Assembly (NCBI RefSeq): GCF_947498805.1
Contig: NZ_CANMLT010000012.1
Coordinates: 181-64,180 of the forward strand
From: an uncultured Tenacibaculum sp.
GTDB taxonomy: Bacteria > Bacteroidota > Bacteroidia > Flavobacteriales > Flavobacteriaceae
Length of the DNA: 64,000 nucleotides
Direction of reading: 5' to 3'
Shown here: piece after piece, positions 1 to 34,880 of the stretch
Position numbering within the stretch: position 1 is the stretch's first letter
Layout of the letters: each line of letters starts with the position of its first letter
Made by a program: the position numbers and the translations under genes
Notes under the pieces: generated by a model
The model's database searches: none
Seen by the model: only the letters and a program-made list of their open reading frames with translations
Told to the model about the DNA's origin: nothing

Positions 1-2172
1 AAAAGAGAGGGCGATATATGGTACAATAAACAAACAGATATTATAAAGAAGTTCTTAGAAAACAAGTACCACAAACAGTTTTCATCTTACAATGAAGCAA
101 AAGACCATGCTTTTTTAGATCATGAAAGGAAGAACAGAAGTAACTATGTAACTCCTGTTATTAATAGTAAAAGAGAAGATAGAAATAGAAGATCTTTAAA
201 AACTAGAACCAATGTTAAAGGGCTAAGAGCTTTAAAAATAAGAGAAACTGAAATAAAAAATGGTATCATTAATTATTCAGCATACCCTACTTATGAAGTT
301 AATGGAGTTCCTTTAAAAGACATAAAGGATATTAACGCACTAAATAATGCCTATAGCAATTTATTAGGGCAATTTATAGATAATAAATGGAGAGAGTTTG
401 AAAGTGATTATATTACAAAAATACTAGGAGCTTCTTTTGATAATAGTCTTTTAAAAACAAAAAATAGCATTTACCAGAGTTTAAACAAGTGGGATCGTTT
501 AGATTTTATGCAGTTTTATATTTACTATGATCAACTTATTAATAGACCTACTCCGATTCCTATGAATCCTCAAGAGGCAAAATTGTTTGAAGAATATTTA
601 GATAAGATAAACTCTATTACTTCAGCCTATGTAACTAACTATGTAAATGCAAACAAGAATAATGATGTATCATTGTTTCATGCAGATCATTGGAAAATAA
701 TTTGGAAAAGAGACTATGGTAATTCTCTTTTTCACATAAATACTGCAAAAAACAAACACAAAGAATTAAAAGAGAAAGAGCTGAATAGACTTATTAACAC
801 AACTTCTATACACGCTACAACTACTATAGACAAACTAGTATCTTTATTAAGAATTACCAATTTAGATGAATTGCAATGGTTAAATGATCACCCACATAAA
901 GGAGATGAATTTGATAAACGATATAGCAATGCAAAATTAAGAGACGTCAACAATCCGCAAGACCCGTCAAAAGGAAAAATATTACCACCAGACTATTACG
1001 AACAACTAGCTATTTCGAGTATTAGAATAGAACTAGCCAATGGAGCTATTGCTGGAGGCGTAATTCGTAAACTTGAACTTACAGATATTAAAATAAAAGA
1101 CTGGTTATATGAAAATCTAAGTCAAGCACAAAAAATTACTTCATTTTTACATGAGAATAGTATCAGCGGTACAATTAACAAAGAGATAAAAGGCATGACT
1201 AATGAATTCTTAACTATTACCAAAGAGATACCTAATGCAAAATTTGAAAGATATAAAGAGCTATTGAATTTAATAAAAGAAAACCCATTTGCTTTAATTC
1301 AAGATTGCATTGAGAACAACGGATTAGCCATTGAGCACTATACATATCTTTACGAACATACGTTGCCTAATGAATGTCTCAATAGGCTAAATGAGTTAGG
1401 TAGCGCATTTAAAGACCAACCTTTAAACGAAGGCAATGCAGCTGCGGCAAATGTAGACTATTACGGTGTCGAAGTAACTAAAAATCCAGATTTTAATAAA
1501 GATGGAATTCCAGATTCAGATGAAGAAATTTTTCTAAAGTATAGGGAAAATTTTGCTACTTTAGCAAGTGGTGGTAAGAAAGATTTTCAATTTTCTTGTG
1601 ATATTCCAGGAGATAGCGATGATAAAGCTGATGTCAGTTGGAAGTTTATCCCTTATTTTCCTTGGGAGCTTACTAAATGGAATTCTTACAACCCATTAAC
1701 TACAATATTTAAAATTGATGCAAATGCTGATGTTTTTATGAGTTCTACAATCGCCGATGATGGAGCTATTATGATTTCAGAATATACATCGAGTTACTGG
1801 ATTGGCTCTACAATTGCTACGGAATTTTCAGGAACCCAACCTTTTTCTGGAAATCGACAATGGGGTTATATAAGGAATCAAAGTGGAAATTTAGAGTTGT
1901 TCGCCAGGGCTGTAGATATTGCAAGACTTTCCAATGTAATGACATACTCGAGTTTTATTGGTTTAGGCGGTAATTTTGAATGTAAAGAAGACACCTATTA
2001 TAACATCGGTGAAGCAACTTGGTCAAATTTACAAGAACAAATTAAGAATTGGGTTGTAAAAAATGGTGGAGAAGCAAGTGTTATACCAAAAACAGCCATT
2101 CGGTTCGATAAAAATAAATTGAAAGAGATGTTAGAAAAAAATGAAGCTATAGATAAAATAAAATGTAATTAA
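1..2172 (+). CDS. large hypothetical protein, 5'-partial (continues upstream of the window)
   Basis: I translated frame 1 from base 1 and it has no stop before the ORF-track Met at 508, so at least 723 codons are present. No family motif recognised. Its stop (2170-2172) is 1 nt from the next ATG (2174), which suggests coupling. Confidence 0.6.
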   Translation, partial: KREGDIWYNKQTDIIKKFLENKYHKQFSSYNEAKDHAFLDHERKNRSNYVTPVINSKREDRNRRSLKTRTNVKGLRALKIRETEIKNGIINYSAYPTYEVNGVPLKDIKDINALNNAYSNLLGQFIDNKWREFESDYITKILGASFDNSLLKTKNSIYQSLNKWDRLDFMQFYIYYDQLINRPTPIPMNPQEAKLFEEYLDKINSITSAYVTNYVNANKNNDVSLFHADHWKIIWKRDYGNSLFHINTAKNKHKELKEKELNRLINTTSIHATTTIDKLVSLLRITNLDELQWLNDHPHKGDEFDKRYSNAKLRDVNNPQDPSKGKILPPDYYEQLAISSIRIELANGAIAGGVIRKLELTDIKIKDWLYENLSQAQKITSFLHENSISGTINKEIKGMTNEFLTITKEIPNAKFERYKELLNLIKENPFALIQDCIENNGLAIEHYTYLYEHTLPNECLNRLNELGSAFKDQPLNEGNAAAANVDYYGVEVTKNPDFNKDGIPDSDEEIFLKYRENFATLASGGKKDFQFSCDIPGDSDDKADVSWKFIPYFPWELTKWNSYNPLTTIFKIDANADVFMSSTIADDGAIMISEYTSSYWIGSTIATEFSGTQPFSGNRQWGYIRNQSGNLELFARAVDIARLSNVMTYSSFIGLGGNFECKEDTYYNIGEATWSNLQEQIKNWVVKNGGEASVIPKTAIRFDKNKLKEMLEKNEAIDKIKCN

Positions 2173-2173
2173 A

Positions 2174-2728
2174 ATGAAAAAATCATTATCTAATTTTGTT
2201 GTTAGAATATTATTAGCTCCTTTATTATGTTCTATAGGTCTATATTTTTTCAATTTAGATTTGTTTTTATATCCTCTGGTGTTTGGAATAGTAATAGGTA
2301 TTTTAAATTTTGATAAATATAAAACTAAGCCATTAATAGGTTTACTCTATGGTCTAGTAGGAGGATATTTAGCTTTTTTTCTATCCTATTTTTCGTTTTT
2401 TTTATTATTACATCTAAAAACTACTATTGGAGAAGACAAAGCCAATCTTATTGCGATTATTACTGCACCTAATTTACTAGCTCCTATGTTAGTCTTTTCG
2501 GTTTATTGGTTCGTTTTCAAATTTAAAAAATCAAAATTTACATTCTTGATAATGGCATTGTCTATTATCGTTTTAATGTTATCATGTATTACAATATATT
2601 TAAACATTAATCTTTTAGGCAGGAACTCTATTAATACAAATTTAATTTGGCAAGTTATTATGGCATTAGCCATTCAACTAATAATTTATCAAAAGGAGAT
2701 GTTTCCTAAACATAAAATCAATTCTTAA
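2174..2728 (+). CDS. multi-pass membrane protein, unknown function
   Basis: 184 aa made almost entirely of hydrophobic helices (LLAPLLCSIGLYFF, LVFGIVIGIL, LIGLLYGLVGGYLAFF and others). Tightly coupled to the upstream ORF. Confidence 0.55.
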   Translation: MKKSLSNFVVRILLAPLLCSIGLYFFNLDLFLYPLVFGIVIGILNFDKYKTKPLIGLLYGLVGGYLAFFLSYFSFFLLLHLKTTIGEDKANLIAIITAPNLLAPMLVFSVYWFVFKFKKSKFTFLIMALSIIVLMLSCITIYLNINLLGRNSINTNLIWQVIMALAIQLIIYQKEMFPKHKINS

Positions 2729-2745
2729 TTTAAATAACAAACGAA

Positions 2746-4002
2746 ATGAAAAAGAACTTTTTTTTTGCAGCTTTAATCTATTGTTTTCTTAGCTCAGAAA
2801 ATATAGAAGCCCAGAAAGAGATAGCTCCAAGTATTGATATTATGCTATACTTAGGGAGAACACCTGGTAAAGCAGAAAGTAAAACTCTTTATGATAACTT
2901 ATTAAGAAAGTTATATTACGAGAAAAAATCAGATGGGTTTAATAAGATTAGTTTTTTAAACAGTAAAGGAGATTATATTACCTCTAAAAAATTTAATATG
3001 GCTTCTGATTTTTATGGTGATTATGCCAATATTATTAAAGATTCTGTCTATGGATATATAGATAAAAAAGGAAAACAAACTCTTTTTAAAAACTATGATT
3101 TTGTGTTTTTCTATTATGGAGATATTGGTATAGCTAAAAAAGGAAGAAAAGAAGGTTTAATTGATAGGGAAGGGAATATTATTAGAGATTTTGATAATGT
3201 ATTTTATGATTTTTTTGGTTATAATCATTTCATGGTTACTAATAATAGAAAAAGTCAAATTATAACCCAAAAAGGGAAAGTTGTTTTTTCAAATGAATTA
3301 AACTATTATATCAAAAGCCATTTTTTCACGCCAGATTCTTTAATCGTTTATCAAAAAAAAATAAACGAAAAGAAAATGAACGGGTTAATCAATTTGCAGA
3401 ACCAATTAATATCAGATAAACTATATGAAGAAGTGTATTATGTTGGGGATGAAGAATATCGTTATTATGCTGTAAAAAACAATAATAAATGGGGGTATAT
3501 TAACAAGAATGGAGAAGAAGTAATCCCTTTAATATATGATAAAATTAGCTTCAATATAAATGAAGGACTTATACCTGTTCAAAAAAATGGTAAATGGGGA
3601 TATATTGATGTAAACAATAACATTAAAATCCCTTTTGAATATGATAAAGCATTTGCCTTTACAAATAAACTTGCTTACGTAAAAAAAGGTAAGTTTTATG
3701 GTTGCATTAATAAGAAAAACAAAGTAAAAATAGATTTTAAATTAGAAAATAATAGTTTTCCTTTTTTCACAGATAAACTATCTGTATTTAGAAAAAATAA
3801 TAAATACGGATTCATAAATAAAAAAGGAAAAGTAATTATCCCACCAAAATTTGATAATGTATATCCTTTTGTTGATGGTTTAGCATATGTGAAAATTGGA
3901 AAAAAAATTGGGTATATTAATAAAAAAGGAAAGTTTATTGTTCCTCTAAAAGAAAGACAGATGTGGTTTCCTAGTGATGGGATTATTAGAATTGCTGAAT
4001 AA
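2746..4002 (+). CDS. secreted WG-repeat (KWGYI-type beta-repeat) protein
   Basis: N-terminal signal peptide (MKKNFFFAALIYCFLSSENIEA). Repeated motifs KWGYINKNGEEVIPLIYD, KWGYIDVNNNIKIPFEYD, KYGFINKKGKVIIPPKFD and IGYINKKGKFIVP are typical of the WG_beta_rep family. Confidence 0.75.
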   Translation: MKKNFFFAALIYCFLSSENIEAQKEIAPSIDIMLYLGRTPGKAESKTLYDNLLRKLYYEKKSDGFNKISFLNSKGDYITSKKFNMASDFYGDYANIIKDSVYGYIDKKGKQTLFKNYDFVFFYYGDIGIAKKGRKEGLIDREGNIIRDFDNVFYDFFGYNHFMVTNNRKSQIITQKGKVVFSNELNYYIKSHFFTPDSLIVYQKKINEKKMNGLINLQNQLISDKLYEEVYYVGDEEYRYYAVKNNNKWGYINKNGEEVIPLIYDKISFNINEGLIPVQKNGKWGYIDVNNNIKIPFEYDKAFAFTNKLAYVKKGKFYGCINKKNKVKIDFKLENNSFPFFTDKLSVFRKNNKYGFINKKGKVIIPPKFDNVYPFVDGLAYVKIGKKIGYINKKGKFIVPLKERQMWFPSDGIIRIAE

Positions 4003-4212
4003 TATTTGCTCAATTTTTTAGTAATAGAACAACTTGTAATAAAATCTATATATACTTAGATTTAATATGGAGTATCGAAAACGGAAAAGCATTTAGTAAA
4101 TATGGGGATTATCAATACTAAAGATTAATTTGACAAAAATTAGCAAAAAAATCAAAAGCTTAATCATCTATAGAACAAGGTTAAATTTAATGTTTTAGTA
4201 AAAACCTAAAAA

Positions 4213-4515
4213 ATGAATATTTATAAACATTTAAAAGTAAGTGCTATAAATTTAGCGCTTACTTTATTATTTATTTTACTGTTAATCTACAACAGTAAAG
4301 AAGAGAGTCCAGTATTAATTATTATATTGCTTTTCTTAGTTGTTTTAATACTTACTTTAAGTTTTAGAGCGCTTTTTTTAAACATAAAAGCAATAAGAAA
4401 TAAAACTATTTCAAAACTCACTTTTCTTCTGTGTTTTGGTTTTAATCTTCTATTTCCGATAACGTTTTTTGGATTGATTATCATAAATCTAAAAGATATT
4501 TTAAAACTATTATAA
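4213..4515 (+). CDS. small hypothetical membrane protein
   Basis: 100-aa ORF with three hydrophobic segments. No homology recognised, and coding potential is uncertain in such AT-rich DNA. Confidence 0.3.
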   Translation: MNIYKHLKVSAINLALTLLFILLLIYNSKEESPVLIIILLFLVVLILTLSFRALFLNIKAIRNKTISKLTFLLCFGFNLLFPITFFGLIIINLKDILKLL

Positions 4516-4581
4516 AAGCATATTAAAAAATATAGAGGTATATTTAATGAGTTAAAGAAATATACGTTCTCCACAAACAAC

Positions 4582-4621
4582 AAACCCTTTTAAGTTGAGT
4601 GCTTAAAAGGGTTTGTTTTTT
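4582..4621. terminator. rho-independent terminator hairpin (bidirectional)
   Basis: aaacccttttaag / cttaaaagggttt gives a 13-bp stem with a 7-nt loop, followed by a T-run. A-rich on the other side. Confidence 0.6.
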
Positions 4622-4664
4622 AATGATAGTTCAGTTCTTTTGTTTTTATATTCTTGAAAACTTC
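4613..4664. repeat. left copy of a perfect 52-bp direct repeat (orphan copy of the kinase 3' end)
   Basis: ttgttttttaatgatagttcagttcttttgtttttatattcttgaaaacttc is identical to 7310-7361. Its reverse complement encodes EVFKNIKTKELNYH*, the C-terminus of the ORF at 7317-8213. Confidence 0.9.
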
Positions 4665-4769
4665 AGCACGAGAAAAAGTGTATCAAAAAATTCCTAACTA
4701 AATTAGTTAAGGATTTTACTTTTTAGAATTAGTGAGCTATATTTACACTTTTTACTTTAAATTTTAATA

Positions 4770-5291
4770 TTATTCAACCCAAACAGATCTACTACAAATT
4801 ACATCCCATTTTCCATTATTTTTTTGCATTAGAGTAAATTCACCTCCGTATGTTTGCAAGTTATAATAAAGAGCCATTGTATTATTACGAAATAGAACGG
4901 GTATTGAAATATATTGTGTTTTTAATTTTTCTTCTTTATTACTCAATTTATCTTTTAGTTTTGGTAAAAATTTATCAAGCTTAAGAACCTTATGAGTTTT
5001 AAATTTTTCTTTAATAAATTTAATTTCATTTTTAGGTATTTTGACAACTGAATCTATTCCATTTTTACACAAATAAAACTCAAGATATTCTTGATTAACA
5101 TACGATACAATTGGTTTATCTCCATCTAGAGTAATTGTTTTATAATAAACCTTATTGGGATTATTTTTTACAATATTTCGTAGTATTCTTTTTGTTTCAG
5201 CATCTTTTAGAGCGATTTGCTCAATAGAAGAACAACTTGATAAAATAATTGATAAAAGTATAATCTTAAGGACATCTAGTACTTTTAGCAT
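4770..5291 (-). CDS. hypothetical lipoprotein
   Basis: Signal peptide plus lipobox (LLSIILSSCSS). 173 aa, no recognised family. Confidence 0.55.
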   Translation of the reverse strand: MLKVLDVLKIILLSIILSSCSSIEQIALKDAETKRILRNIVKNNPNKVYYKTITLDGDKPIVSYVNQEYLEFYLCKNGIDSVVKIPKNEIKFIKEKFKTHKVLKLDKFLPKLKDKLSNKEEKLKTQYISIPVLFRNNTMALYYNLQTYGGEFTLMQKNNGKWDVICSRSVWVE

Positions 5292-5791: not shown

Positions 5792-7174
5792 TTTTAATAA
5801 TTCTTTGAATTTCTGTTTTATTTGTTAAGGACTTATAACTGCTACTAGATTCTAATCCTGCCCAAGAAAGAGCTTTATAATAATCAATGTTTTGCCTATG
5901 ATTATCATATGCAGATAAAGAATAAGCGAGAGCCTCAACATATTCCCCCATAAATTGATGTTCTGTTAGGTTAGATTTGTAGTTATTTAGCTTATGATAC
6001 ATCTTTAAAACACTCGTTATTGTTGAGTTTTGTTTGGATCTTGTAATATAATGTAAATAAGCGTGTAAACTCTCATGAATTATTGTTTTCGCTATAAATA
6101 ATCTAGTAGCTTCGTCTATCATGTCAGTATCTAAAGTTACATGAAAACCATTAGTATTACCATTTACCCCCTCTCCGATATCGTCCAATTGTACGATAGA
6201 AAACTTTAAATTATATTCTCTAGAGCTATTAAATAACTCTAATATCATTTGTGATAAATGAGTTTTCCCTCCTAAATTAGGTATTAAAGTCCCATTTAAA
6301 TCTTTTTGCTTTAACGTGTTAATAATTTCACTAACACAAGGATTATTTGTGTTGTCAATAATACCATCTTCTGCCCACCAAGGTTTAATATCTTCGGTAT
6401 TAAGTTCATTCGTATTATCCCCATTAGAACCTGAATTACCATTACTATTTGAACCTGCACCACTTCCTAAATTATTATTATGACCTAAACTCCAATCAAT
6501 CGGGTTTTTTATATTATTACTAGGAGTACTCCAATCTTCATAAGTATCTGAACTACTTCCTCCACTAGTTCCACCAACACAAACACAATCCAATAATGTC
6601 CCTACATCCCATCCATCTATTAACAATTCTACAACTTCCAATGCAGATGTATCGCAGGAACACCCACGACTAGAAAGACTATTAGATAAATTTAAATCTT
6701 TTAACGTTTGAATGTAATCTCCTTTTTTATACTGATAAACTTCTATAAATATGCCATTACTATCATGTTTAAAAATATAACCAGAAAATTCTTGATCATC
6801 AGAATCTTTATCATAAACTAAAGTTAAGATAAATGATTCTATTTGGTTATTTTTTTTACCGAAGCAACCAGAGATTTTAAACGTTTATCTGTGTTTAAAT
6901 TTATAGGTGTATACAAAAAATTTATATTTTCTTTAAATTCTTTAATTTTAGAAGCTTTCCACACAATATCTAGGTCTTTTCCAGATTTTAAACGAGTGTT
7001 TTTAGAAAATATAGTTTGTTCAAAAACTTCTTTGGTTTGTTTTACAGCAGGAATAGAATATTTTTGCTGTACTGTCGAGATTTCGATAGAATCATTGTTA
7101 TTTTCATAATTAAATAACAATATTGAGACAGTAAGTAATAATAAAACCGATAATAAATACTTTAATTTTTACAT
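5742..7174 (-). pseudogene. disrupted gene for a secreted Cys/Gly-Ser-Asn-rich protein with an HExxH (zinc-metallopeptidase-like) C-terminal domain
   Basis: ATG (7174-7172) is followed immediately by TAA (7171-7169), then by an in-frame signal-peptide-like KLKYLLSVLLLLTVSILL. The ORF-track pieces 6839-7120 and 5742-6641 lie in different frames. They would join if one base were removed from the A8 run (coding strand, 6850-6857). The sequence between them (ESFILTLVYDKD...CSCDTSA) is open in the downstream frame. HExxH motif: TIIHESLHAYLH. Confidence 0.55.
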
Positions 7175-22652: not shown

Positions 22653-25199
22653 TTACTCTTTTATAAACTTAAGTACCTTTTGTTCTTTTTCAGTTTTTAA
22701 CTCAAAGAAGTAAACTCCGTTTGGTAATCTTGAAACATCAATGTTTTTGGTTGCTTTTCCAAATTGCACTACGCTACCTACCACATTAACAATACGATAT
22801 TTAGCATTTGACAATGATGCTGTTTTAATGTTTAAAAAGTTTGATGTTGGATTAGGGAAAACTGTAATTTTCGAGATGTTACTATTGATTGAGAATCCTC
22901 CCCAATCGTCACCCCAATCATCTCCCCAGTCGTCGCCCCAGTCATCACCCCAATCTGATTTGGTGGTTACACTGATTTCATTACTACTAGAAGAAACATT
23001 ACCTGCTGCATCTTTTGCTTTTACAGAAAACTTATACGCTGTATCAGCTGTTAAACCTGTTACGTTATAGTTGGTAGCTGTTACCGTTGTTAACTTTGTA
23101 GTTCCTCTATATACATCATACCCTGTTACAGCAACATTATCGGTTGAAGCTGTCCAGTTTAAAGCTAAAGTAGTTTTCTCAACATTGGTTGCTTTTAAGC
23201 TTGTTGGTGCTGTTGGTGCTTGTGTATCTTTAGCAGCTTCTTTCTTAGTGGTAAAGTTAATTGAAGTGCCATATGCAGAGTTTTTAGTAGCACATTTACT
23301 ACGCACTTGTACGTCATACTTTGTTTCTGCTGTTAAGCCTTCAATTGTATAACTATTTGTAGTTGCTTCTTTAGTTGTCCAATTTGTAGTTCCAGATTTA
23401 CGGTATTGTACATCGTATTTTGCTCCAGCTACCGCAGTCCATTCTACCTTAGCTTCCGTTTCCGTTACGTTATTTGCAACTACATTTGTTGGTACTGTTG
23501 CATTACATACTACTGGTGCTCCTTTTAATCCTGTTACGATTAAAGAAAAGTTCTGACTATTTCCTGTTAAAGTTCCTTTATGAGTAACTGTGATTGTATA
23601 GGTTCCTGATGCATTTGCAACATCTACTCTTTCGTAAGGATCTACTTTATTGTCTCCTTTGGTATTGGTGCTTACTCCTGTTAATTTCCAAGGATTGTAA
23701 GTTGTAGTTCCTTTTTTAACTCTAATATCTAAATCATTTACTAAAACAGCCGTTGATTGATTTGCTTTTTCTGTAGCCGTACCTGGTCTATCTGTCCAAG
23801 AAATTGATGCTAATAATGGACTTTTCCCATCAGACTCTACCGTTAAGGTATACGATTTTCCTGATGCTAATGTTAACTCTTTAATTTGAGCCTCTTTACC
23901 TGCTTGCGTAATGGCTACAGCCGCTGCTTTCGAATTCAACAATCCCCATCCAAAAATGGCATCTGGTCCAGTTGAACCTGCATCATCAGCAGTATGTAAA
24001 GCCAAACCTTTTAAGGTAGCTGCTTTCATAAAGTTATTGTTCTTATTCTTATAATGTTGTTGTAATAACAATAAAGAACCCGTTACATTTGGTGCTGCCA
24101 TCGATGTTCCTGTCATTTCAACATAATCATCGTTAACATTTCCGTCACTATTGTTTTGTCCAGATGCCTTGTCGTAACTAGGAAAGTGAGTAGCTGAGTA
24201 TACTCCTGCTCCGTTTCCTGCAATATCTGGTTTGATACGTAAATCATCTGTTGGCCCTTCACTACTTGAGTTGTGAATTTGCACTGAGATTAACTTTCCA
24301 CTTGCGTCAACATTTGCATCTTTTGCATTGGCCACTACTAAATTATTCTTACAAGTAGCATGACCAGATAATTTATCATAAGCTTTGTTTCCATTTAATG
24401 GTTCTGCATTCGAGCTTTCATCCTGTCCATCATTACCAGCTGCTACTACCATTAAATAATTTGGTGTATTAAACATCAATTCATCCCAATCACGAGAAAC
24501 TTTAATGTATGCTCCAAAATAATAATCTGGAATTTGTTGTGCTCCATAACCATATGAGTGGTTCGAGAGTATCATTCCATTAGATGCTGCATTTGTTGCT
24601 TCCGACTTATCATTGTTCCAATCATTTCCAATGGCAGATGCATAAGGAGCCATTCCTTTTGCTTTCGCCACTTTTCCTGACGCTACAATAGTAGCTGTTA
24701 CATGCTCTGCGTGAAAGTTTAATGTAGAAGATCCATCACCTACAGATACTCTATTGTTTCCTCCTGTTCCGTCATATTCTTGATGGTCTTTATTGGGTAC
24801 TCCTCCATCCCATACATAGGCTTTCATTCCTTGACCTAATAAATTTAAGCCTAAGGAACCTCCATTATGTAAGTGATTTGTTCTTGTTGATTTTGCCGCG
24901 TCTACATTAAATGTTGTATAATAAATAGGTTTACCATCTACAACTTCTTGAAGTTCCATATAGGTACCATCCTTTTTAAAAATGGTAGTTTCCCATCCTT
25001 TTTGCTTAGCTATTTTATAAGCTTCTTCTTTTTTATTGTTGCTTTCTTTTTGAAAATTACTACTTAATCTTTGTAGTTTTTTTAAATCATAACTGCCACG
25101 TATAGATTCTACTTCTTGTTTGTTCTGTGCTTGTACTTGATAACTCGTTCCTAGAAGAACAGACGATAGGACCATCGCCTTTAAATAATTGTTTTTCAT
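22653..25199 (-). CDS. secreted subtilisin-family (S8) serine protease with two FN3 domains, a DWGD repeat linker and a T9SS C-terminal sorting domain
   Basis: Signal peptide. Catalytic D (VWDGGV), H (HAEHVTATI) and S (TGTSMAAPNVTGS). FN3-like EAKVEWTAV...YDVQVRS and LALNWTAS...YKFSVKA. C-terminus ITVFPNPTSNFLNIK...GVYFFELKT is a Por/T9SS CTD. Confidence 0.9.
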   Translation of the reverse strand: MKNNYLKAMVLSSVLLGTSYQVQAQNKQEVESIRGSYDLKKLQRLSSNFQKESNNKKEEAYKIAKQKGWETTIFKKDGTYMELQEVVDGKPIYYTTFNVDAAKSTRTNHLHNGGSLGLNLLGQGMKAYVWDGGVPNKDHQEYDGTGGNNRVSVGDGSSTLNFHAEHVTATIVASGKVAKAKGMAPYASAIGNDWNNDKSEATNAASNGMILSNHSYGYGAQQIPDYYFGAYIKVSRDWDELMFNTPNYLMVVAAGNDGQDESSNAEPLNGNKAYDKLSGHATCKNNLVVANAKDANVDASGKLISVQIHNSSSEGPTDDLRIKPDIAGNGAGVYSATHFPSYDKASGQNNSDGNVNDDYVEMTGTSMAAPNVTGSLLLLQQHYKNKNNNFMKAATLKGLALHTADDAGSTGPDAIFGWGLLNSKAAAVAITQAGKEAQIKELTLASGKSYTLTVESDGKSPLLASISWTDRPGTATEKANQSTAVLVNDLDIRVKKGTTTYNPWKLTGVSTNTKGDNKVDPYERVDVANASGTYTITVTHKGTLTGNSQNFSLIVTGLKGAPVVCNATVPTNVVANNVTETEAKVEWTAVAGAKYDVQYRKSGTTNWTTKEATTNSYTIEGLTAETKYDVQVRSKCATKNSAYGTSINFTTKKEAAKDTQAPTAPTSLKATNVEKTTLALNWTASTDNVAVTGYDVYRGTTKLTTVTATNYNVTGLTADTAYKFSVKAKDAAGNVSSSSNEISVTTKSDWGDDWGDDWGDDWGDDWGGFSINSNISKITVFPNPTSNFLNIKTASLSNAKYRIVNVVGSVVQFGKATKNIDVSRLPNGVYFFELKTEKEQKVLKFIKE
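22897..22955 (-). repeat. five tandem 12-bp units encoding (DWGD)n
   Basis: The protein reads SDWGDDWGDDWGDDWGDDWGG. The DNA units differ at synonymous positions (gtcacc, atctcc, gtcgcc, atcacc). Confidence 0.85.
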
Positions 25200-28276: not shown

Positions 28277-28286
28277 ATACTTTTAG

Positions 28287-28401
28287 ACTATAATGCAAAT
28301 GCCTTTAGCATTATAATGGGAATGTCTTTAACACTATAAGGGAAACGCCTTTAACACTATAATGGGAATGCCTTTAAGACTATAATGGAAATGTCTTTAA
28401 G
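28287..28401. repeat. tandem array, 5 x 23 bp
   Basis: Units are actataatgcaaatgcctttagc, attataatgggaatgtctttaac, actataagggaaacgcctttaac, actataatgggaatgcctttaag and actataatggaaatgtctttaag. They are head-to-tail with no spacers. Confidence 0.9.
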
Positions 28402-28440
28402 ATTATTAGGCTATTAGTTTATGGCCTTTTTTATAAAAAC

Positions 28441-28468
28441 AAAAAGATGAACAGAAGTCCATCTTTTT
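28441..28468. terminator. AT-rich hairpin, possible bidirectional terminator
   Basis: aaaaagatg / catcttttt stem with a 10-nt loop. Confidence 0.4.
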
Positions 28469-28485
28469 ATGTGTTTTGGTTATGC

Positions 28486-28551
28486 TATGCTTGATTTTCT
28501 TGTTTTATCACGCGATACAATCGCGCGGGAGCAGGGGATACAATCGCGCGG
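28486..28551. repeat. copy 1 of a gene-trailing repeat element containing the palindrome CGCGAT-ACA-ATCGCG (with an internal 23-bp partial duplication)
   Basis: The 39-bp core 28486-28524 aligns without gaps to 29566-29604 (offset exactly 1080 bp, 36 of 39 identical), and weaker similarity continues to about 28537. gatacaatcgcgcgg recurs at 28514 and 28537. Confidence 0.85.
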
Positions 28552-28570
28552 AAGCAGTAACAAATATCTT

Positions 28571-29494
28571 TTAGTTTTTCATTATTTCAATTTCATTCGA
28601 TTTAAAATCAAATTCCACAAAAGTCGATTCTGTAGCAACCTTACATTTTATATTAAACTCATTTTCAAAAAACCGTTTACTAACACGAATCTTTCCCAGT
28701 GTTTTATAAACTAATGGCAATAATGGATCATAAAAACCGGGCAACGTTACAGATTGCTCTCCAACTTTAAACTGTTGTTCTTCTCTATTACTAAATATTA
28801 CTTGAATATAATCTTGATAAATTGTTGGTTCAGGAGTTCTAATATATCTTTTAGCCTCTTTGTCAATCTCAATAAAGCAGTTGATATAGTTTGCACTAAC
28901 CATACCTAAATTATGTATCATTAAGCTTATCTCAAAATTGTTTGTTTTAATGCTATTTAATAGAACAGATTCGGGATAAGCGGAAAGTACAATATTAATC
29001 TTAGGTTTTGATGCTCGATTAATCACATCTTTAACCTCCCAATCATCCATCGCAATAGCTTGAAAATTATATCTTTTATAATACTTCTTGTCTTGGGCTT
29101 GATGAGCAGTATTACTTTTGGGAATATCCAATACAAAAACACATTCTGTATCACTAAAATCTACTTTTATAATCTCAACGTTATCAATTCTTGGGGTAAT
29201 TCTTGAATTAATTACTTGCTCTATCCACTCCTCCGAAACCTTATTAGAATCAACGTAGTCAATACACTCAGCTTTACATTTATTAGACCCCGAATTAAAC
29301 TCTTGGATTCCATAAATTATAATACCTCCATTTGAATTTGCCATTGCTGAAACATCTTTAGAAAGATCATCTGACTTTGAACCAGCTTTATTCATGGAAT
29401 TATACAATGAAGCTGCACGTTTAAACTCAAGTGAATTACTTTCTTTTGCCTCGGTTCTTATATATTCATTTATCGCTTTAATATTCCATTCCAT
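28571..29494 (-). CDS. AlbA_2 (Schlafen-like, 'divergent AAA') domain protein with an unknown beta-rich C-terminal half
   Basis: ESNSLEFKRAAS...LSKDVSAMANSNGGIIIYGI matches the hallmark E-x4-EFK ... aFAN-x-GG-x-ll-G signature of PF04326. The last 150 aa or so show no recognised motif. Confidence 0.7.
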   Translation of the reverse strand: MEWNIKAINEYIRTEAKESNSLEFKRAASLYNSMNKAGSKSDDLSKDVSAMANSNGGIIIYGIQEFNSGSNKCKAECIDYVDSNKVSEEWIEQVINSRITPRIDNVEIIKVDFSDTECVFVLDIPKSNTAHQAQDKKYYKRYNFQAIAMDDWEVKDVINRASKPKINIVLSAYPESVLLNSIKTNNFEISLMIHNLGMVSANYINCFIEIDKEAKRYIRTPEPTIYQDYIQVIFSNREEQQFKVGEQSVTLPGFYDPLLPLVYKTLGKIRVSKRFFENEFNIKCKVATESTFVEFDFKSNEIEIMKN

Positions 29495-29557
29495 TTGTTA
29501 TACTTTGTTTAAATAATACTCTATCAATGTATTCCAATTACCTCAGAGGATCCAATC

Positions 29558-29616
29558 GTGTTTTATATGCTTGGTTTTCTTGTTTTACGACGCGATACAA
29601 TCGCACAAAAGCGGGG
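29558..29616. repeat. copy 2 of the gene-trailing repeat element with CGCGAT-ACA-ATCGCG
   Basis: tatgcttggttttcttgttttacgacgcgatacaatcgca. Lies between the stop of the KAP gene and the start of the AlbA_2 gene. Confidence 0.85.
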
Positions 29617-29622
29617 TTATGT

Positions 29623-31392
29623 CTACTTCATTAGTTTCCCCTTAATTTCATCAACCCAAGTTAAAAATTCTCCATATAATAGTCTTTTAGGTTGTTTAAT
29701 ATCATTACTAGCAATATATTCTTTTAATATCTTCTCAAAATCAACAAAAAACTTATATTCAGATTCACAATAATTATTTAAATACATTTTATAACCTTGT
29801 TTAAGGTTAAAATTAAGATTCAACATTTCTTTATTACTTAATTCTATTATTTTTTGGAAAAATTCTTGGGGATTTAAGCAACCAAATAAGCACTTATACA
29901 CCATTGAAGTATTTAAGAAGTCGCTAAGTTCATTTCCTATAACGTTTAAATATTTATAAATATTTATTGCATTATTTCTGTTTGAATCTTTAATTTTGTC
30001 ATAGTGAAATTCTATTAATTTCTGATCTAAGAGACTGGGTTCTTCCTCTAAATTTTCAATCAGTAAAAAATTAACTTCTGACGTTTCTTTTGCTTTTTGA
30101 ATACCTTCAAATAACACATCTTCAATTTCCTTTATATCCTTAATTAATATTAAATTAGTTACGAAATATTGAAAAGTTTTATAAAAAGAAGGGTAATGAT
30201 ACATACTATATTTGCCTTCCTTTATATAACCTAAAAACTTCTTTACACTTTCTTCAAACTCTTCATTTTCTAAAGTCTTGAAATTATACCCCATTAATGA
30301 GTTAAGTACTTTTTCTTCTTCTGATGTTTCTTTTTCTTTTCTATTCTCTATCTCTTTAGTTATTTTCTGCTCAGCTAAAACACCAGTTAAAACATAATCA
30401 TATAACCCTTCTGAAAATGTAAACAGCTCTTGTTTTTCTTGGTTATTTAAATATTTTTCTACAAACTTTTCTCTATCACTTTTATCCTCTCCGACACTCT
30501 TTTTTCCGATTCTCAGTAAATTTTCATTAAATATAAAAGGGCTATCATACCCCTTATAATCACCACTATCTAAACAAGTTAACCTACCTTCCTTAAACTC
30601 ATTTGATATTATCAGCATAAAAAACAGCATGCTATTAATAATTCCTGCGTCCTGATTTTTTAACATAGGAAACACTTCATGAACACAGTTCAGATAAAAA
30701 TTAAATGTCCTGAGGTTTTGAATATCATGCTCATAAAAAAAAGACACTATCATATCTTTTCTTTCAATTAAAAAAGTTTTAAACTCAACTTCATCTAAAA
30801 CATCTAAACTAGAATCAAAAAAATCTTGATAGTTTGCCTTATAGTTAAGCGTTCTTCCTATTACTTTTTCCTTAATTCTTTTATACTCGTCATCATTTAT
30901 TTCTTCCTCATAAGCACAAATTACAACCTTGAGTCCCTTATGTTCAACATAATCATTTATTAAACCTAATATATCTTTAATAGGAATTGAACATCTTTCT
31001 AAATCATCAAAACAAATAATCAATTTTGAGTAATCAAGATTAATCTCTACGCCATCTGTAAGATCTGAAAGTTTAATACCACCAGCAAAAACAGTTCCTA
31101 AGGCATTAAGTCCATTTCTTAAGACATTCATAGACCCTTTAACAAATTTATTATTCATAGAGTCTGGAAGTAAATTGACCAATAAAATTCCTTCTACTTC
31201 TTTAACATTACTTATCCCATTCAATGATACATATACTGGTTTGAGCTCTTTTTCTTTTACTTTTTGAGACAAAACATTTTTCCATAAATAGGTTTTACCA
31301 CTCCCCCATTTCCCAGAAACTAGTAAAGCATAATTGACTTGTTTCTTTTCAATATAACTTTCAAATATAGATGTAACACTCTCTAAATTCAT
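29623..31392 (-). CDS. KAP-family P-loop NTPase (soluble form)
   Basis: Walker A LLVSGKWGSGKTYLW and Walker B plus signature LIICFDDLERCSIPIKDILGLIN match the KAP family (G-x-WGSGKT, DDLDRC). Followed by a long helical C-terminal region. Confidence 0.75.
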   Translation of the reverse strand: MNLESVTSIFESYIEKKQVNYALLVSGKWGSGKTYLWKNVLSQKVKEKELKPVYVSLNGISNVKEVEGILLVNLLPDSMNNKFVKGSMNVLRNGLNALGTVFAGGIKLSDLTDGVEINLDYSKLIICFDDLERCSIPIKDILGLINDYVEHKGLKVVICAYEEEINDDEYKRIKEKVIGRTLNYKANYQDFFDSSLDVLDEVEFKTFLIERKDMIVSFFYEHDIQNLRTFNFYLNCVHEVFPMLKNQDAGIINSMLFFMLIISNEFKEGRLTCLDSGDYKGYDSPFIFNENLLRIGKKSVGEDKSDREKFVEKYLNNQEKQELFTFSEGLYDYVLTGVLAEQKITKEIENRKEKETSEEEKVLNSLMGYNFKTLENEEFEESVKKFLGYIKEGKYSMYHYPSFYKTFQYFVTNLILIKDIKEIEDVLFEGIQKAKETSEVNFLLIENLEEEPSLLDQKLIEFHYDKIKDSNRNNAINIYKYLNVIGNELSDFLNTSMVYKCLFGCLNPQEFFQKIIELSNKEMLNLNFNLKQGYKMYLNNYCESEYKFFVDFEKILKEYIASNDIKQPKRLLYGEFLTWVDEIKGKLMK

Positions 31393-31593
31393 GATTCTTT
31401 TTTTGCTTTTTGATATACCTTTTTGCTTCAGAAAAGAATATTTACTTATTATCTTAAAAGGGCTATCAATCTATTATGTAACTTTAAAATTTAAAATCTA
31501 TTAATCGTAAATATAAAAAGCTCAAAAAAAACACACCTACGGAAAACCGTAAACAAAGTAAGGTTTTACCTTATTCTTTAACATCCAAACAAA

Positions 31594-31628
31594 AACCCCA
31601 ACATCTAACTAGATGTCGAGGTTTTTTT
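31594..31628. terminator. bidirectional terminator downstream of uspA
   Basis: ccccaacatcta / tagatgtcgagg imperfect stem flanked by an A-run and a T-run. Confidence 0.5.
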
Positions 31629-31649
31629 GAATTAAGAGGAAACCTATTT

Positions 31650-32483
31650 TTAAATCTTAAAGGTCAATACGGGTAAGGTAGCATGGTTGGCTACGTCTTC
31701 AGAGATACTTCCTTCAATAAAGTGTTGTAGACCTCTGCGTCCGTGTGTTGCCATGATAATCACATCTTTTCCATGTACATTCGAAAACTCTAAAATTCCG
31801 TCTTCAATGGTATAATCTGCTACATAGTGCACCTTGTCCATATTGGCAATGCTACCTTCTGCTTTTTGTAAGAAATTGGCTACTTTTTCTTGCATTTCTT
31901 TGGTACTTCTAAATTTTGAATTAGGGGTATTTACATGCAATAAATCAACCGCACAGCTAAAGTTACTTAATAGGTCTTTTGCTTTTTGATAGGGTGCTAC
32001 ATCTTCATCTGAAAAATCGCAAGCAAATACTGCCGATTTAAAAGAGGTAGTGACAGCTTCGTTTTTAATCACCAATACAGGAATCTCAGCATTTCTCACT
32101 ACTTTTTCGGTATTAGAGCCTACAAAGAATTCTTTAGCTCCTGTAGCTCCATGAGACCCCATAATAATCATATCAGCATTTTCTTCTCTAGCCAATGCAT
32201 TGAGCTCACTAAACACTTTAAAATGCTTGATAATTGGAGTAAGCTTTACTTCTTGTAAATAGTCTTTATCTAAAAACTCTTTGAATCGTTTTTCTGCTAA
32301 TTTATAATAGAAAATTGTTTGTTCGTTTACAGCATTTTCAGATCTTGTAATTAAGGCATTTGATAACTCTAACATATGCACTGGTAACACCTCAGCATCA
32401 AAGGTTTTTGCTAAATAGCTCGCGGTTTGCAATGCGCGGTCTGAATATTCCGAAAAATCAACGGGTACAATAATTTTTTTCAT
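31650..32483 (-). CDS. tandem-domain universal stress protein (UspA family)
   Basis: Two Usp halves, each with the MKKIIVPVDFS / GSHG...GS...V pattern (IMGSHGATGAKEFFVGSNTEKVV and IMATHGRRGLQHFIEGSISEDV). Confidence 0.85.
   Translation of the reverse strand: MKKIIVPVDFSEYSDRALQTASYLAKTFDAEVLPVHMLELSNALITRSENAVNEQTIFYYKLAEKRFKEFLDKDYLQEVKLTPIIKHFKVFSELNALAREENADMIIMGSHGATGAKEFFVGSNTEKVVRNAEIPVLVIKNEAVTTSFKSAVFACDFSDEDVAPYQKAKDLLSNFSCAVDLLHVNTPNSKFRSTKEMQEKVANFLQKAEGSIANMDKVHYVADYTIEDGILEFSNVHGKDVIIMATHGRRGLQHFIEGSISEDVANHATLPVLTFKI

Positions 32484-34790: not shown

Positions 34791-34880
<90 letters not shown>

What the first reader, a model, noticed from the sequence alone, without database searches (positions are those of the whole stretch)
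28277..31650. Orphan two-gene islet: KAP-family P-loop NTPase plus AlbA_2/Schlafen-like protein (candidate novel defence-type system)
Two co-oriented genes are wedged between a DUF983 gene and uspA, both housekeeping-type.
- The first (29623-31392) has the KAP NTPase signatures GKWGSGKT and CFDDLERC, but I see none of the inserted TM helices many KAP proteins carry.
- The second (28571-29494) opens with the AlbA_2 signature (ESNSLEFK ... AMANSNGGIIIYGI). This is the fold of the Schlafen N-terminal nuclease domain. A beta-rich domain of about 150 aa that I cannot place follows it.

An NTPase sensor or switch next to a putative nuclease effector is the logic of many anti-phage systems, and TM-containing KAP NTPases have been reported as a stand-alone defence gene. 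I do not recognise this soluble KAP plus AlbA_2 pairing as a named system.

The islet is bounded by repeats and terminators. It contains no metabolic genes, no integrase and no methylase.
Basis: partly seen in the sequence, partly recalled or inferred. Interest (0 to 1): 0.72.

Follow-up and report, generated by a model that had tools for sequence, protein, structure and literature searches.

The report
Two unrelated single-gene phage-defence genes
Two neighbouring genes in a marine Tenacibaculum genome are real and look like anti-phage genes, but they are two independent, already described kinds of single-gene module that happen to sit side by side, not a new two-gene system.

Summary
Two co-oriented minus-strand ORFs lie at 29623-31392 (589 aa) and 28571-29494 (307 aa), with the stated motifs, between a DUF983 gene and a tandem-Usp gene.

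The interpretation as a novel KAP + AlbA_2 pair does not hold.
- The 589-aa protein matches PADLOC's single-gene candidate PDC-S49 over its full length (E 6e-68).
- The 307-aa protein has the architecture of the published prokaryotic Schlafen class pSlfn5: an N-terminal Ex4(E/D)xK nuclease plus a C-terminal Ig-like beta-sandwich. pSlfn5 is a one-gene defence.
- None of 80 genomic loci of NTPase relatives carries a member of the window's 307-aa family within 10 kb.
- Seven distinct contexts of 307-aa relatives (49-81% identity) have other upstream neighbours: HEPN/MNT, DUF3825, TIR/SEFIR, LRR-Roc-COR and unknowns.
- A close relative (flanks 88-92% identical) has a 198-aa lipoprotein-like gene in the same Usp-DUF983 gap. 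The 3.1-kb islet (28474-31587) is therefore strain-specific cargo.
- The 51-nt repeat behind each gene belongs to a REP family that clusters around IS200-like (RAYT-type) transposase genes elsewhere.

One modest new point: the beta-sandwich domain is a rare module that also occurs fused to a TIR domain.

Verdict: new members of known kinds; low-to-moderate interest.

The parts
29623..31392 (-). Soluble KAP-type P-loop NTPase, 589 aa. N-terminal NTPase domain (aa ~1-185) with a non-hydrophobic insert at aa ~63-120. All-helical C-terminal region of unknown function (aa ~190-589). Member of the PADLOC PDC-S49 family.
   Evidence: ORF. PADLOC PDLC05031 E 6e-68 over aa 6-564. Pfam KAP_NTPase 28.7 bits. 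Invariant G27, W29, G30, G32, K33, T34 and C127, D129, D130, E132, R133 in 61 relatives. AF2 model pLDDT 85.9. No TM segment. phrog_4740 E 7e-54.
28571..29494 (-). Prokaryotic Schlafen (pSlfn) protein, 307 aa. N-terminal AlbA_2/Slfn nuclease domain (aa 1-~160; E18-x4-E23-x-K25, E65). C-terminal Ig-like beta-sandwich (aa ~162-307), a putative phage sensor.
   Evidence: ORF. Pfam 63.8 bits. Motif conservation in 52 relatives. AF2 pLDDT 92.1. Foldseek places the N-domain with DIP2311 and SLFN5, and the C-domain with transglutaminase, integrin and Fab beta-sandwiches. Family profile hits Slfn13/5/14/12/11 at the active-site stretch.
28474..31587 (.). Strain-specific inserted segment (3114 bp) that carries both genes. 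It replaces 740 bp holding a 198-aa lipoprotein-like gene in a close relative.
   Evidence: blastn of L089 against the window. Gene order in L089. GC 0.286 against 0.321 for the window, 8th percentile.
28486..28559 (+). REP-type repeat just downstream of the pSlfn gene, with two tandem cores (GCGATACAATCGC and a degenerate copy).
   Evidence: The same core clusters in both orientations around Y1_Tnp (IS200-like) genes in L093 and L094.
29566..29616 (+). Second copy of the REP-type repeat (84% identical), in the 128-bp spacer just downstream of the NTPase gene.
28437..28473 (-). Conserved hairpin plus T-run (terminator-like) that marks the DUF983-side edge of the variable slot.
   Evidence: 28470-28439, 14 pairs. 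92% identical to L089 5815-5851.
31588..31649 (-). Conserved Usp 3' flank with a bidirectional hairpin terminator. It marks the Usp-side edge of the variable slot.
   Evidence: Sequence, the same element in L089, blastn edge at 31588.
31393..31587 (-). Islet-specific region upstream of the NTPase gene. It includes a terminator-like hairpin (31555-31534) that would insulate the gene from usp read-through. No promoter was mapped.
28280..28406 (.). 23-bp tandem repeat, 5.5 copies, between the DUF983 stop codon and the conserved hairpin. It is absent from the close relative and its function is unknown.

Best explanation
The 3.1-kb segment 28474-31587 is strain-specific accessory DNA lodged in a variable slot between usp and the DUF983 gene of an uncultured Tenacibaculum. 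It carries two independent one-gene modules of the anti-phage type.

(1) The 307-aa protein is a prokaryotic Schlafen of the pSlfn5-like architecture.
- Inferred mechanism, by analogy with RorSlfn5: the fast-evolving C-terminal Ig-like beta-sandwich binds a phage protein. That binding switches on the N-terminal Ex4(E/D)xK nuclease, which cuts tRNA and shuts down translation, so phage yield falls.

(2) The 589-aa protein is a soluble KAP-type P-loop NTPase of the PADLOC PDC-S49 family.
- Inferred mechanism, by analogy with the KAP-plus-unknown-region proteins shown to defend Enterococcus: NTP binding and hydrolysis by the intact Walker A/B site controls the ~400-aa helical C-terminal region, which carries out the still unknown antiviral activity.

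Shown here: domain identities, conserved catalytic residues, predicted folds, lack of conserved pairing, and presence/absence polymorphism of the islet.

Inferred only: defence function, trigger, substrates, and independence of action in this strain.
For: Not a pair:
- tblastn of the 307-aa protein finds nothing in 80 species-level loci (+-10 kb) of NTPase relatives.
- A family HMM finds only three distant AlbA_2 ORFs, in L072, L019 and L009.
- Relatives of the 307-aa protein at 49-81% identity sit behind HEPN/MNT, DUF3825, TIR/SEFIR, LRR-Roc-COR or unknown genes, never behind the NTPase.
- DNA homology to the closest relatives stops within 7 bp of the ORF ends.
- The nearest NTPase relatives (43-45% identity) stand alone among housekeeping genes.

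Accessory cargo:
- L089 has the same FixG-FixH-DsbD_2-YitT-Usp ... DUF983-AraC backbone at 88-92% nucleotide identity, but a different gene in the gap.

pSlfn:
- Pfam AlbA_2 at 63.8 bits.
- In 52 relatives: E18 in 50, position 23 always D or E, K25 and E65 in all 52.
- The family profile hits Slfn13/5/14/12/11 at the active site.
- AF2 pLDDT 92.1. Foldseek puts the C-domain with integrin, transglutaminase and Fab beta-sandwiches.
- Mean pairwise identity is 55% in the N-domain and 26% in the C-domain. The same pattern is reported for pSlfn5, along with experimental proof that the Ig-like domain sets phage specificity and that the nuclease cleaves tRNA (PMC13056530).
- The C-domain also occurs fused to a TIR domain in P0382, which is how a portable sensor would behave.

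NTPase:
- PDC-S49 at E 6e-68 and invariant Walker A/B residues.
- Neighbours in the Bacteroidota clade include DRT reverse transcriptases, AbiEii, AriA-like, LmuB-like and Eco57I genes.
- Relatives occur in phages (phrog_4740) and on plasmids.
Against: - No experiment exists on either gene or on any close relative. PDC-S49 is only a candidate, and no paper in the library mentions it.
- In the Clostridia clade of the NTPase family the gene occupies a conserved slot between a ComF-like PRTase and SpoVT in dozens of species. That looks core-like rather than defence-like.
- The validated EF_KAP has TM helices, and the window protein has none.
The paper reports 30% of pSlfn genes are not near known defence genes.
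- Three of 80 NTPase loci do have some AlbA_2 protein nearby, so a loose affinity between the two gene kinds cannot be fully dismissed.
- The contigs of the closest AlbA_2 relatives are short (2-8 kb).
Confidence: 0.68

Rival explanations
1. The KAP NTPase and the AlbA_2 protein form one two-gene defence system, with the NTPase sensing infection and licensing the Schlafen-type nuclease.
For: - The genes are adjacent, co-oriented and 128 bp apart, with no strong terminator between them.
- Each is followed by the same REP-type repeat.
- NTPase-nuclease pairs are a common defence logic (general knowledge; PMC13552941 cites such systems).
- 3 of 80 NTPase loci have a distant AlbA_2 protein within 10 kb. 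In L072 it is directly adjacent.
Against: - No member of the window's AlbA_2 family lies in any of 80 NTPase loci.
- AlbA_2 relatives have seven other upstream neighbours.
- The two genes have very different nearest relatives: 81% identity for the AlbA_2 protein against 45% for the NTPase.
- The AlbA_2 protein already carries its own sensor-like domain.
- PADLOC lists PDC-S49 under its single-gene ('S') candidate names.
- In L072 the AlbA_2 gene is divergent, belongs to another family (PDC-S50) and is not the window's family.
Confidence: 0.07
2. One or both genes are not immune genes. The AlbA_2 protein would be a nucleic-acid-binding or regulatory protein, as its database names suggest ('ATP-binding protein', 'AlbA family DNA-binding'). 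The NTPase would serve a cellular function.
For: - Source names.
- The Clostridia clade of the NTPase family sits in a conserved ComF-like/SpoVT neighbourhood.
- 30% of pSlfn genes are not near defence genes.
- The window's flanks are housekeeping genes.
Against: - The 307-aa protein has no HTH or HATPase domain, while its nuclease motif is fully conserved.
- The islet is absent from a close relative.
- Relatives sit among TA, DGR, TIR, ROCO and conjugative genes.
- The NTPase matches defence-candidate and phage families.
Confidence: 0.15
3. The islet is decaying cargo of a mobile element or prophage, carried along with REP sequences and without current function.
For: - phrog_4740 match.
- The REP-type repeats occur only inside the islet within the 64-kb window.
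- Lower GC.
- No integrase or transposase nearby.
Against: - Both ORFs are intact and full length against their family profiles, with all catalytic residues kept.
- Both models are well folded.
Confidence: 0.08

Closest known systems
pSlfn5 / RorSlfn5 (prokaryotic Schlafen fused to an Ig-like sensor; Perez Taboada et al., Nat Microbiol 2026, PMC13056530)
   Same: - One-gene architecture with the Slfn nuclease at the extreme N-terminus: catalytic Ex4(E/D)xK is E15/D20 in RorSlfn5 and E18/E23/K25 here.
- A C-terminal beta-sandwich with structural similarity to integrin ectodomains.
- A conserved nuclease domain and a divergent C-domain.

   Different: - Bacteroidota rather than Enterobacterales.
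- Sequence relation of the C-domain to RorSlfn5 is untested.
- The C-domain family is small (48 clusters at 50% identity) and is also found on a TIR protein.
- Trigger and RNA targets are unknown.
- No hit in PADLOC v2.
PADLOC PDC-S49 (phage defence candidate, single gene)
   Same: Full-length profile match, E 6e-68, aa 6-564 of a 624-position model. ~600-aa soluble KAP-type NTPase that stands alone in other genomes.
   Different: PDC-S49 is a computational candidate with no validation found. The window protein is only 45% identical to its nearest relative.
[quoted passage not shown]
   Same: KAP NTPase domain followed by a >300-aa region with no recognisable domain. A single gene. Walker B is essential in EF_KAP, and the same DD motif is invariant here.
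   Different: EF_KAP has two TM helices and the window protein has none. Sequence relatedness is untested. The hosts are Firmicutes.
PifA of the F plasmid (KAP NTPase that excludes phage T7)
   Same: KAP family, single-gene phage exclusion (as described in PMC13552941).
   Different: No direct comparison was made here. The mechanism of PifA is itself unknown.
REP elements and RAYT (IS200-like Y1) transposases
   Same: The 51-nt repeat has a short palindromic core (GCGAT-N3-ATCGC) and sits just 3' of genes. The same core occurs 6-7 times in both orientations around a 186-aa Y1_Tnp gene in L093 and L094.
   Different: The window has no RAYT-like gene. It has only three cores, all in one orientation and all inside the islet.

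Membership tests
KAP family P-loop NTPase (PF07693) | Profile match above Pfam's gathering score | tested here: met
   28.7 bits against a cut-off of 20, but the best stretch is only aa 17-49. Most ~600-aa relatives carry PF07693.
KAP family P-loop NTPase (PF07693) | Walker A of the GxWGxGK[ST] type with the family's Trp, and a Walker B hhhhDDL[ED]R | tested here: met
   GKWGSGKT at aa 27-34 and CFDDLERC at aa 127-134. G27, W29, G30, G32, K33, T34, C127, D129, D130, E132 and R133 are invariant in 61 sequences. The motif definition comes from general knowledge of the family.
KAP family P-loop NTPase (PF07693) | Transmembrane helices inserted in the NTPase domain (present in many members, not all) | tested here: not met
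   Best KD-19 window is 1.24, at aa 248. The insert between Walker A and B (aa ~63-120) is non-hydrophobic and of low confidence.
PADLOC PDC-S49 | Full-length match to the system's HMM | tested here: met
   PDLC05031 E 6e-68, PDLC05029 E 1e-54, PDLC05030 E 5e-38.
PADLOC PDC-S49 | Demonstrated anti-phage activity | not testable with these tools
   No paper in the library mentions PDC-S49. 'PDC' denotes candidate genes.
Prokaryotic Schlafen (pSlfn) | Slfn/AlbA_2 nuclease domain (PF04326) | tested here: met
   63.8 bits, aa 18-146. Foldseek to SLFN5 N-domain and DIP2311. Profile hits to Slfn13/5/14/12/11.
Prokaryotic Schlafen (pSlfn) | Conserved Ex4(E/D)xK catalytic motif | tested here: met
   E18 in 50/52, position 23 is D in 29 and E in 23, K25 in 52/52. 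E65 in 52/52 aligns with the Asp of SLFN5 'GVHD'. Motif definition from PMC13056530.
pSlfn5 (Slfn + Ig-like sensor) | [quoted passage not shown] | tested here: met
   aa 166-298 form 11 strands at pLDDT >90. Foldseek hits to transglutaminase beta-barrels, Fab, integrin alpha-V and CsgH. This is a prediction only.
pSlfn5 (Slfn + Ig-like sensor) | Sequence homology to RorSlfn5 and activation by a phage tail assembly chaperone | not testable with these tools
   The RorSlfn5 sequence and supplementary tables are not held.
   0 of 80 NTPase loci hold the window's AlbA_2 family. 7 of 7 distinct AlbA_2 contexts lack the NTPase.
REP/RAYT repeat family | Short palindromic extragenic repeat that clusters around a Y1 (IS200-like) transposase gene | tested here: inconclusive
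   Met in L093 and L094. The window has three cores but no RAYT gene. Only two outside loci were seen.

The most novel reading that the evidence does not exclude
The ~145-aa C-terminal beta-sandwich of the 307-aa protein would be a portable phage-protein sensor of a new sequence family.
- The family has only 48 clusters among 1.84 billion representatives.
- Bacteria have wired it to at least two different immune effectors: a Schlafen tRNase here and a TIR domain in P0382.
- Its trigger in Bacteroidota phages would be unknown and could differ from the tail assembly chaperone sensed by RorSlfn5.
- Separately, the soluble PDC-S49 NTPase would be a real defence gene with a new helical effector region.
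Probability: 0.3. Interest if true: 0.45.

Novelty: new member of a known kind. Interest (0 to 1): 0.27.

Why it matters
- It removes a false lead. A tidy NTPase-plus-nuclease neighbourhood is not a system unless the pairing recurs, and here it does not.
- It gives two untested Bacteroidota representatives of recently recognised one-gene defences: a Schlafen tRNase with an Ig-like sensor, and a KAP NTPase with an unknown C-terminal region. Phage defence in marine Flavobacteriia is little studied.
- The same beta-sandwich is attached to a TIR effector elsewhere. This is a small, testable hint that it is an exchangeable sensor.
- The Usp-DUF983 gap could serve as a marker slot for variable cargo in this Tenacibaculum lineage.

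Tried and rejected
- Exact-sequence look-up of the window's NTPase gave no record.
- NCBIfam gave nothing useful for either protein.
- PADLOC gave no hit for the 307-aa protein even at E <= 1, so it is not PDC-S50, unlike the AlbA_2 gene in L072.
- Structure searches for the NTPase gave only generic AAA+/ORC/RFC/DnaA and weak RdrA similarity. There was no PDB sequence relative, so the C-terminal 400 aa stays unplaced.
- I tested whether the TIR/SEFIR gene next to a pSlfn relative in L097 shares the beta-sandwich domain. It does not.
- I looked for conserved flanks that would define a mobile cassette around the pSlfn gene. Homology stops at the ORF ends.
- Rfam gave nothing above chance in the intergenic regions. 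The REP hairpins are not unusually stable.
- No RAYT-like gene was found in the window.
- The sigma-70-type promoter scan was no better than shuffles, and Bacteroidota promoters are not covered, so operon structure is unresolved.
- Supplementary tables of the Schlafen and KAP papers are not held, so no direct comparison with RorSlfn5 or EF_KAP was possible.


Full report
**1. Observation**

The window comes from an uncultured Tenacibaculum. Identical proteins are on record under that name (P0001, P0121).

The two ORFs are exactly as reported: 29623-31392(-), 589 aa, and 28571-29494(-), 307 aa. All four quoted motifs are present in the translations.

Pfam results:
- SLFN_AlbA_2 is well supported: 63.8 bits, aa 18-146.
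- KAP_NTPase is only marginal on this sequence: 28.7 bits against a cut-off of 20, best stretch aa 17-49.
- The flanks are DUF983 and a tandem-Usp protein.

The KAP call is rescued by the family. 288 relatives of about 600 aa were found, and most carry PF07693. The Walker A (G27, W29, G30, G32, K33, T34) and Walker B (C127, D129, D130, E132, R133) residues are invariant in 61 sequences.

Neither protein has a TM segment. The best 19-residue hydropathy is 1.24.

**2. Limits of the islet**

The Usp protein has a 92%-identical relative on a metagenomic contig, L089. That contig has the same backbone: FixG-FixH-DsbD_2-YitT-Usp, then a gap, then DUF983-AraC.

blastn gives these correspondences:

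| Window | L089 | Identity |
|---|---|---|
| 34800-31588 | 1868-5074 | 88% |
| 28473-28437 (hairpin terminator) | 5815-5851 | 92% |
| 28277-26968 | 5858-7166 | 92% |

Window 28474-31587 (3114 bp) therefore replaces 740 bp that encode one 198-aa lipoprotein-like ORF with no family match.

More distant Tenacibaculum genomes have other genes after usp. The gap is a variable slot and the islet is strain-specific.

Its GC content is 0.286 against 0.321 for the window, which puts it at the 8th percentile of 3.1-kb windows.

**3. Is it a pair?**

- I fetched 80 species-level genomic loci of NTPase relatives with 10 kb on each side.
- tblastn with the 307-aa protein found nothing.
- A family HMM, and an HMM of the N-domain alone, found only three distant AlbA_2 ORFs, in L072, L019 and L009. 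None belongs to the window's family. The L072 ORF matches a different PADLOC candidate, PDC-S50.
- In the other direction, relatives of the 307-aa protein at 49-81% identity lie behind a HEPN/MNT pair beside a DGR, DUF3825, an 884-aa unknown, a TraO-region unknown, a TIR/SEFIR protein, or a 1432-aa LRR-Roc-COR protein. No NTPase relative occurs on those contigs.
- DNA similarity to the closest relatives ends within 7 bp of the ORF.
- The two genes also have very different nearest relatives: 81% identity for the 307-aa protein against 45% for the NTPase.
- The closest NTPase relatives stand alone among housekeeping genes.

The pairing is local and fortuitous. At most it reflects the general tendency of defence genes to collect together.

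**4. The 307-aa protein**

- In an alignment of 52 relatives, E18 is present in 50, position 23 is always D or E, and K25 and E65 are invariant.
- This is the Ex4(E/D)xK motif that defines prokaryotic Schlafen nucleases (PMC13056530). E65 aligns with the Asp of the SLFN5 'GVHD' stretch.
- The family profile hits the active-site stretch of rat Slfn13 (deposited as Schlafen 8) and of SLFN5, SLFN14, SLFN12, SLFN11 and CbCash.
- The AlphaFold2 model is confident (pLDDT 92.1). It has an alpha/beta N-domain and an all-beta C-domain from about residue 166.
- Foldseek matches the N-domain to DIP2311 and to SLFN5 N-domains. It matches the C-domain to Ig-like beta-sandwiches: transglutaminase barrels, Fab chains, integrin alpha-V and CsgH.

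This is the architecture of pSlfn5. In that class the Ig-like domain, which was likewise noted to resemble integrin ectodomains, senses a phage tail assembly chaperone, and the nuclease then cuts tRNA anticodon arms.

As in pSlfn5, the nuclease domain is conserved and the C-domain is divergent: 55% against 26% mean pairwise identity.

A profile of the C-domain was searched against 1.84 billion representative proteins:
- Only 48 hits came back, and nearly all have the same ~300-aa architecture.
- One hit, P0382, carries a TIR domain (aa 249-385) followed by this domain (aa 414-548, E 2e-12).
- A domain shared by two different immune effectors behaves like an exchangeable sensor.

**5. The 589-aa protein**

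- It matches all three PDC-S49 models of PADLOC over its full length; the best is E 6e-68.
- It also matches phrog_4740, of unknown function, at E 7e-54.
- Distant relatives occur on Bacillus, Listeria and other plasmids.
- The model (pLDDT 85.9) shows a P-loop domain with a low-confidence, non-hydrophobic insert at the place where many KAP proteins carry TM helices. About 400 aa of helices follow.
- Fold searches give only generic AAA+ similarity (ORC/Cdc6, RFC, DnaA) and weak RdrA of RADAR. There is no solved relative by sequence.
- Among 112 neighbours (+-3 genes) of 19 Bacteroidota-clade loci there are DRT reverse transcriptases, AbiEii, AriA-like, LmuB-like, mad3/mad8, Eco57I, Zot and TraO, mixed with housekeeping genes.
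[quoted passage not shown] The protection needs Walker B and the C-terminal region (PMC13552941). The best-studied one, EF_KAP, has TM helices.

The analogy therefore supports the working model "NTPase switch controls an unknown C-terminal effector". It does not support membership in the same subfamily.

One caution applies. In the Clostridia clade (23-25% identity, still PDC-S49 at E 7e-83) the gene sits in a conserved slot between a ComF-like PRTase and SpoVT across dozens of species. That pattern is not typical of defence genes.

**6. Repeats**

- A 51-nt repeat follows each gene, at 28486-28559 (two cores) and 29566-29616. It occurs nowhere else in the 64 kb.
- A scan of metagenome contigs found its core, GCGAT-N3-ATCGC, 6-7 times in both orientations around a 186-aa IS200-like Y1 transposase gene in two contigs. 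This is the classic REP/RAYT arrangement. Both contigs are themselves rich in defence-type genes: nSTAND3-Mrr, ParE, AAA_15 and SLATT_5.
- The window has no such transposase.
- A separate 23-bp tandem array (28280-28406) lies outside the islet and is missing from L089. I have no explanation for it.

**7. Verdict**

- The defence-type reading is plausible for each gene separately.
- The two-gene-system and novelty claims are not supported.
- These are new members of known kinds: a pSlfn5-like Schlafen and a PDC-S49/KAP NTPase.
- The only modestly new element is the rare beta-sandwich domain shared with a TIR protein.

Noticed in passing
window 28280-28406: A 23-bp tandem repeat (consensus CTTTAAGACTATAATGGAAATGC, 5.5 copies, 80% matches) lies between the DUF983 stop codon and the conserved hairpin. 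The whole 159-bp stretch 28278-28436 is absent from the close relative L089. No function is known.
   Followed up: partly
window 28486-28559 and 29566-29616; L093 5005-6852; L094 447-2016: The repeat behind each islet gene belongs to a REP family (core GCGAT-N3-ATCGC). In two metagenomic contigs this core flanks a 186-aa IS200-like (RAYT-type) transposase gene in both orientations. Those contigs also carry nSTAND3-Mrr, ParE, AAA_15 and SLATT_5 genes.
   Followed up: partly
L027-L080 (e.g. L038 9335-12583): In uncultured Clostridia, the PDC-S49-type NTPase gene sits in a conserved slot. A ComF-like PRTase (DZR_2 + Pribosyltran) lies directly upstream and SpoVT often lies downstream, across dozens of species. 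This is unusual for a defence gene and is a caution for the PADLOC candidate label.
   Followed up: partly
P0382 (549 aa): A protein with an unknown N-terminal region, a TIR/SEFIR domain (aa 249-385) and the same C-terminal beta-sandwich as the window's Schlafen protein (aa 414-548, E 2e-12). The putative sensor is therefore shared between two effector types.
   Followed up: partly
L097 7563-9876; L098 4573-9795; L082 2540-4348; L084 96-2047: In all seven distinct contexts seen, relatives of the 307-aa Schlafen protein lie directly downstream of a co-oriented gene, with a 110-270 bp gap. Several of these upstream genes are of immune or toxin type: TIR/SEFIR, LRR-Roc-COR and HEPN/MNT. Others are DUF3825 or unknown. 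The sample is too small to tell a pattern from ordinary gene co-orientation.
   Followed up: partly
L072 4412-5299(-) and 5783-7786(+): In Bacillus sp. FJAT-29937, a 295-aa AlbA_2 protein that matches PADLOC PDC-S50 lies divergently next to the PDC-S49 NTPase relative. This is the only adjacent AlbA_2/KAP case among the 80 loci, and the AlbA_2 gene belongs to a different family.
   Followed up: partly
L089 5199-5795: The close relative carries a 198-aa lipoprotein-like ORF (signal peptide ending LMSC) in the same Usp-DUF983 slot. It has no Pfam or PADLOC match.
   Followed up: partly
window 34791-34871: A 7-bp tandem repeat (TCCTGTC, 11.6 copies) lies between the FixG-like and FixH-like genes and creates a spurious 'RRQETGD' ORF. 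The blastn alignment to L089 breaks here, so the copy number probably differs between the two strains.
   Followed up: no
window 22898-22955: A 12/24-bp tandem repeat inside the 848-aa peptidase-like gene (22653-25199, not scanned against Pfam) encodes a DWGD x4 linker ahead of its C-terminal domain.
   Followed up: no
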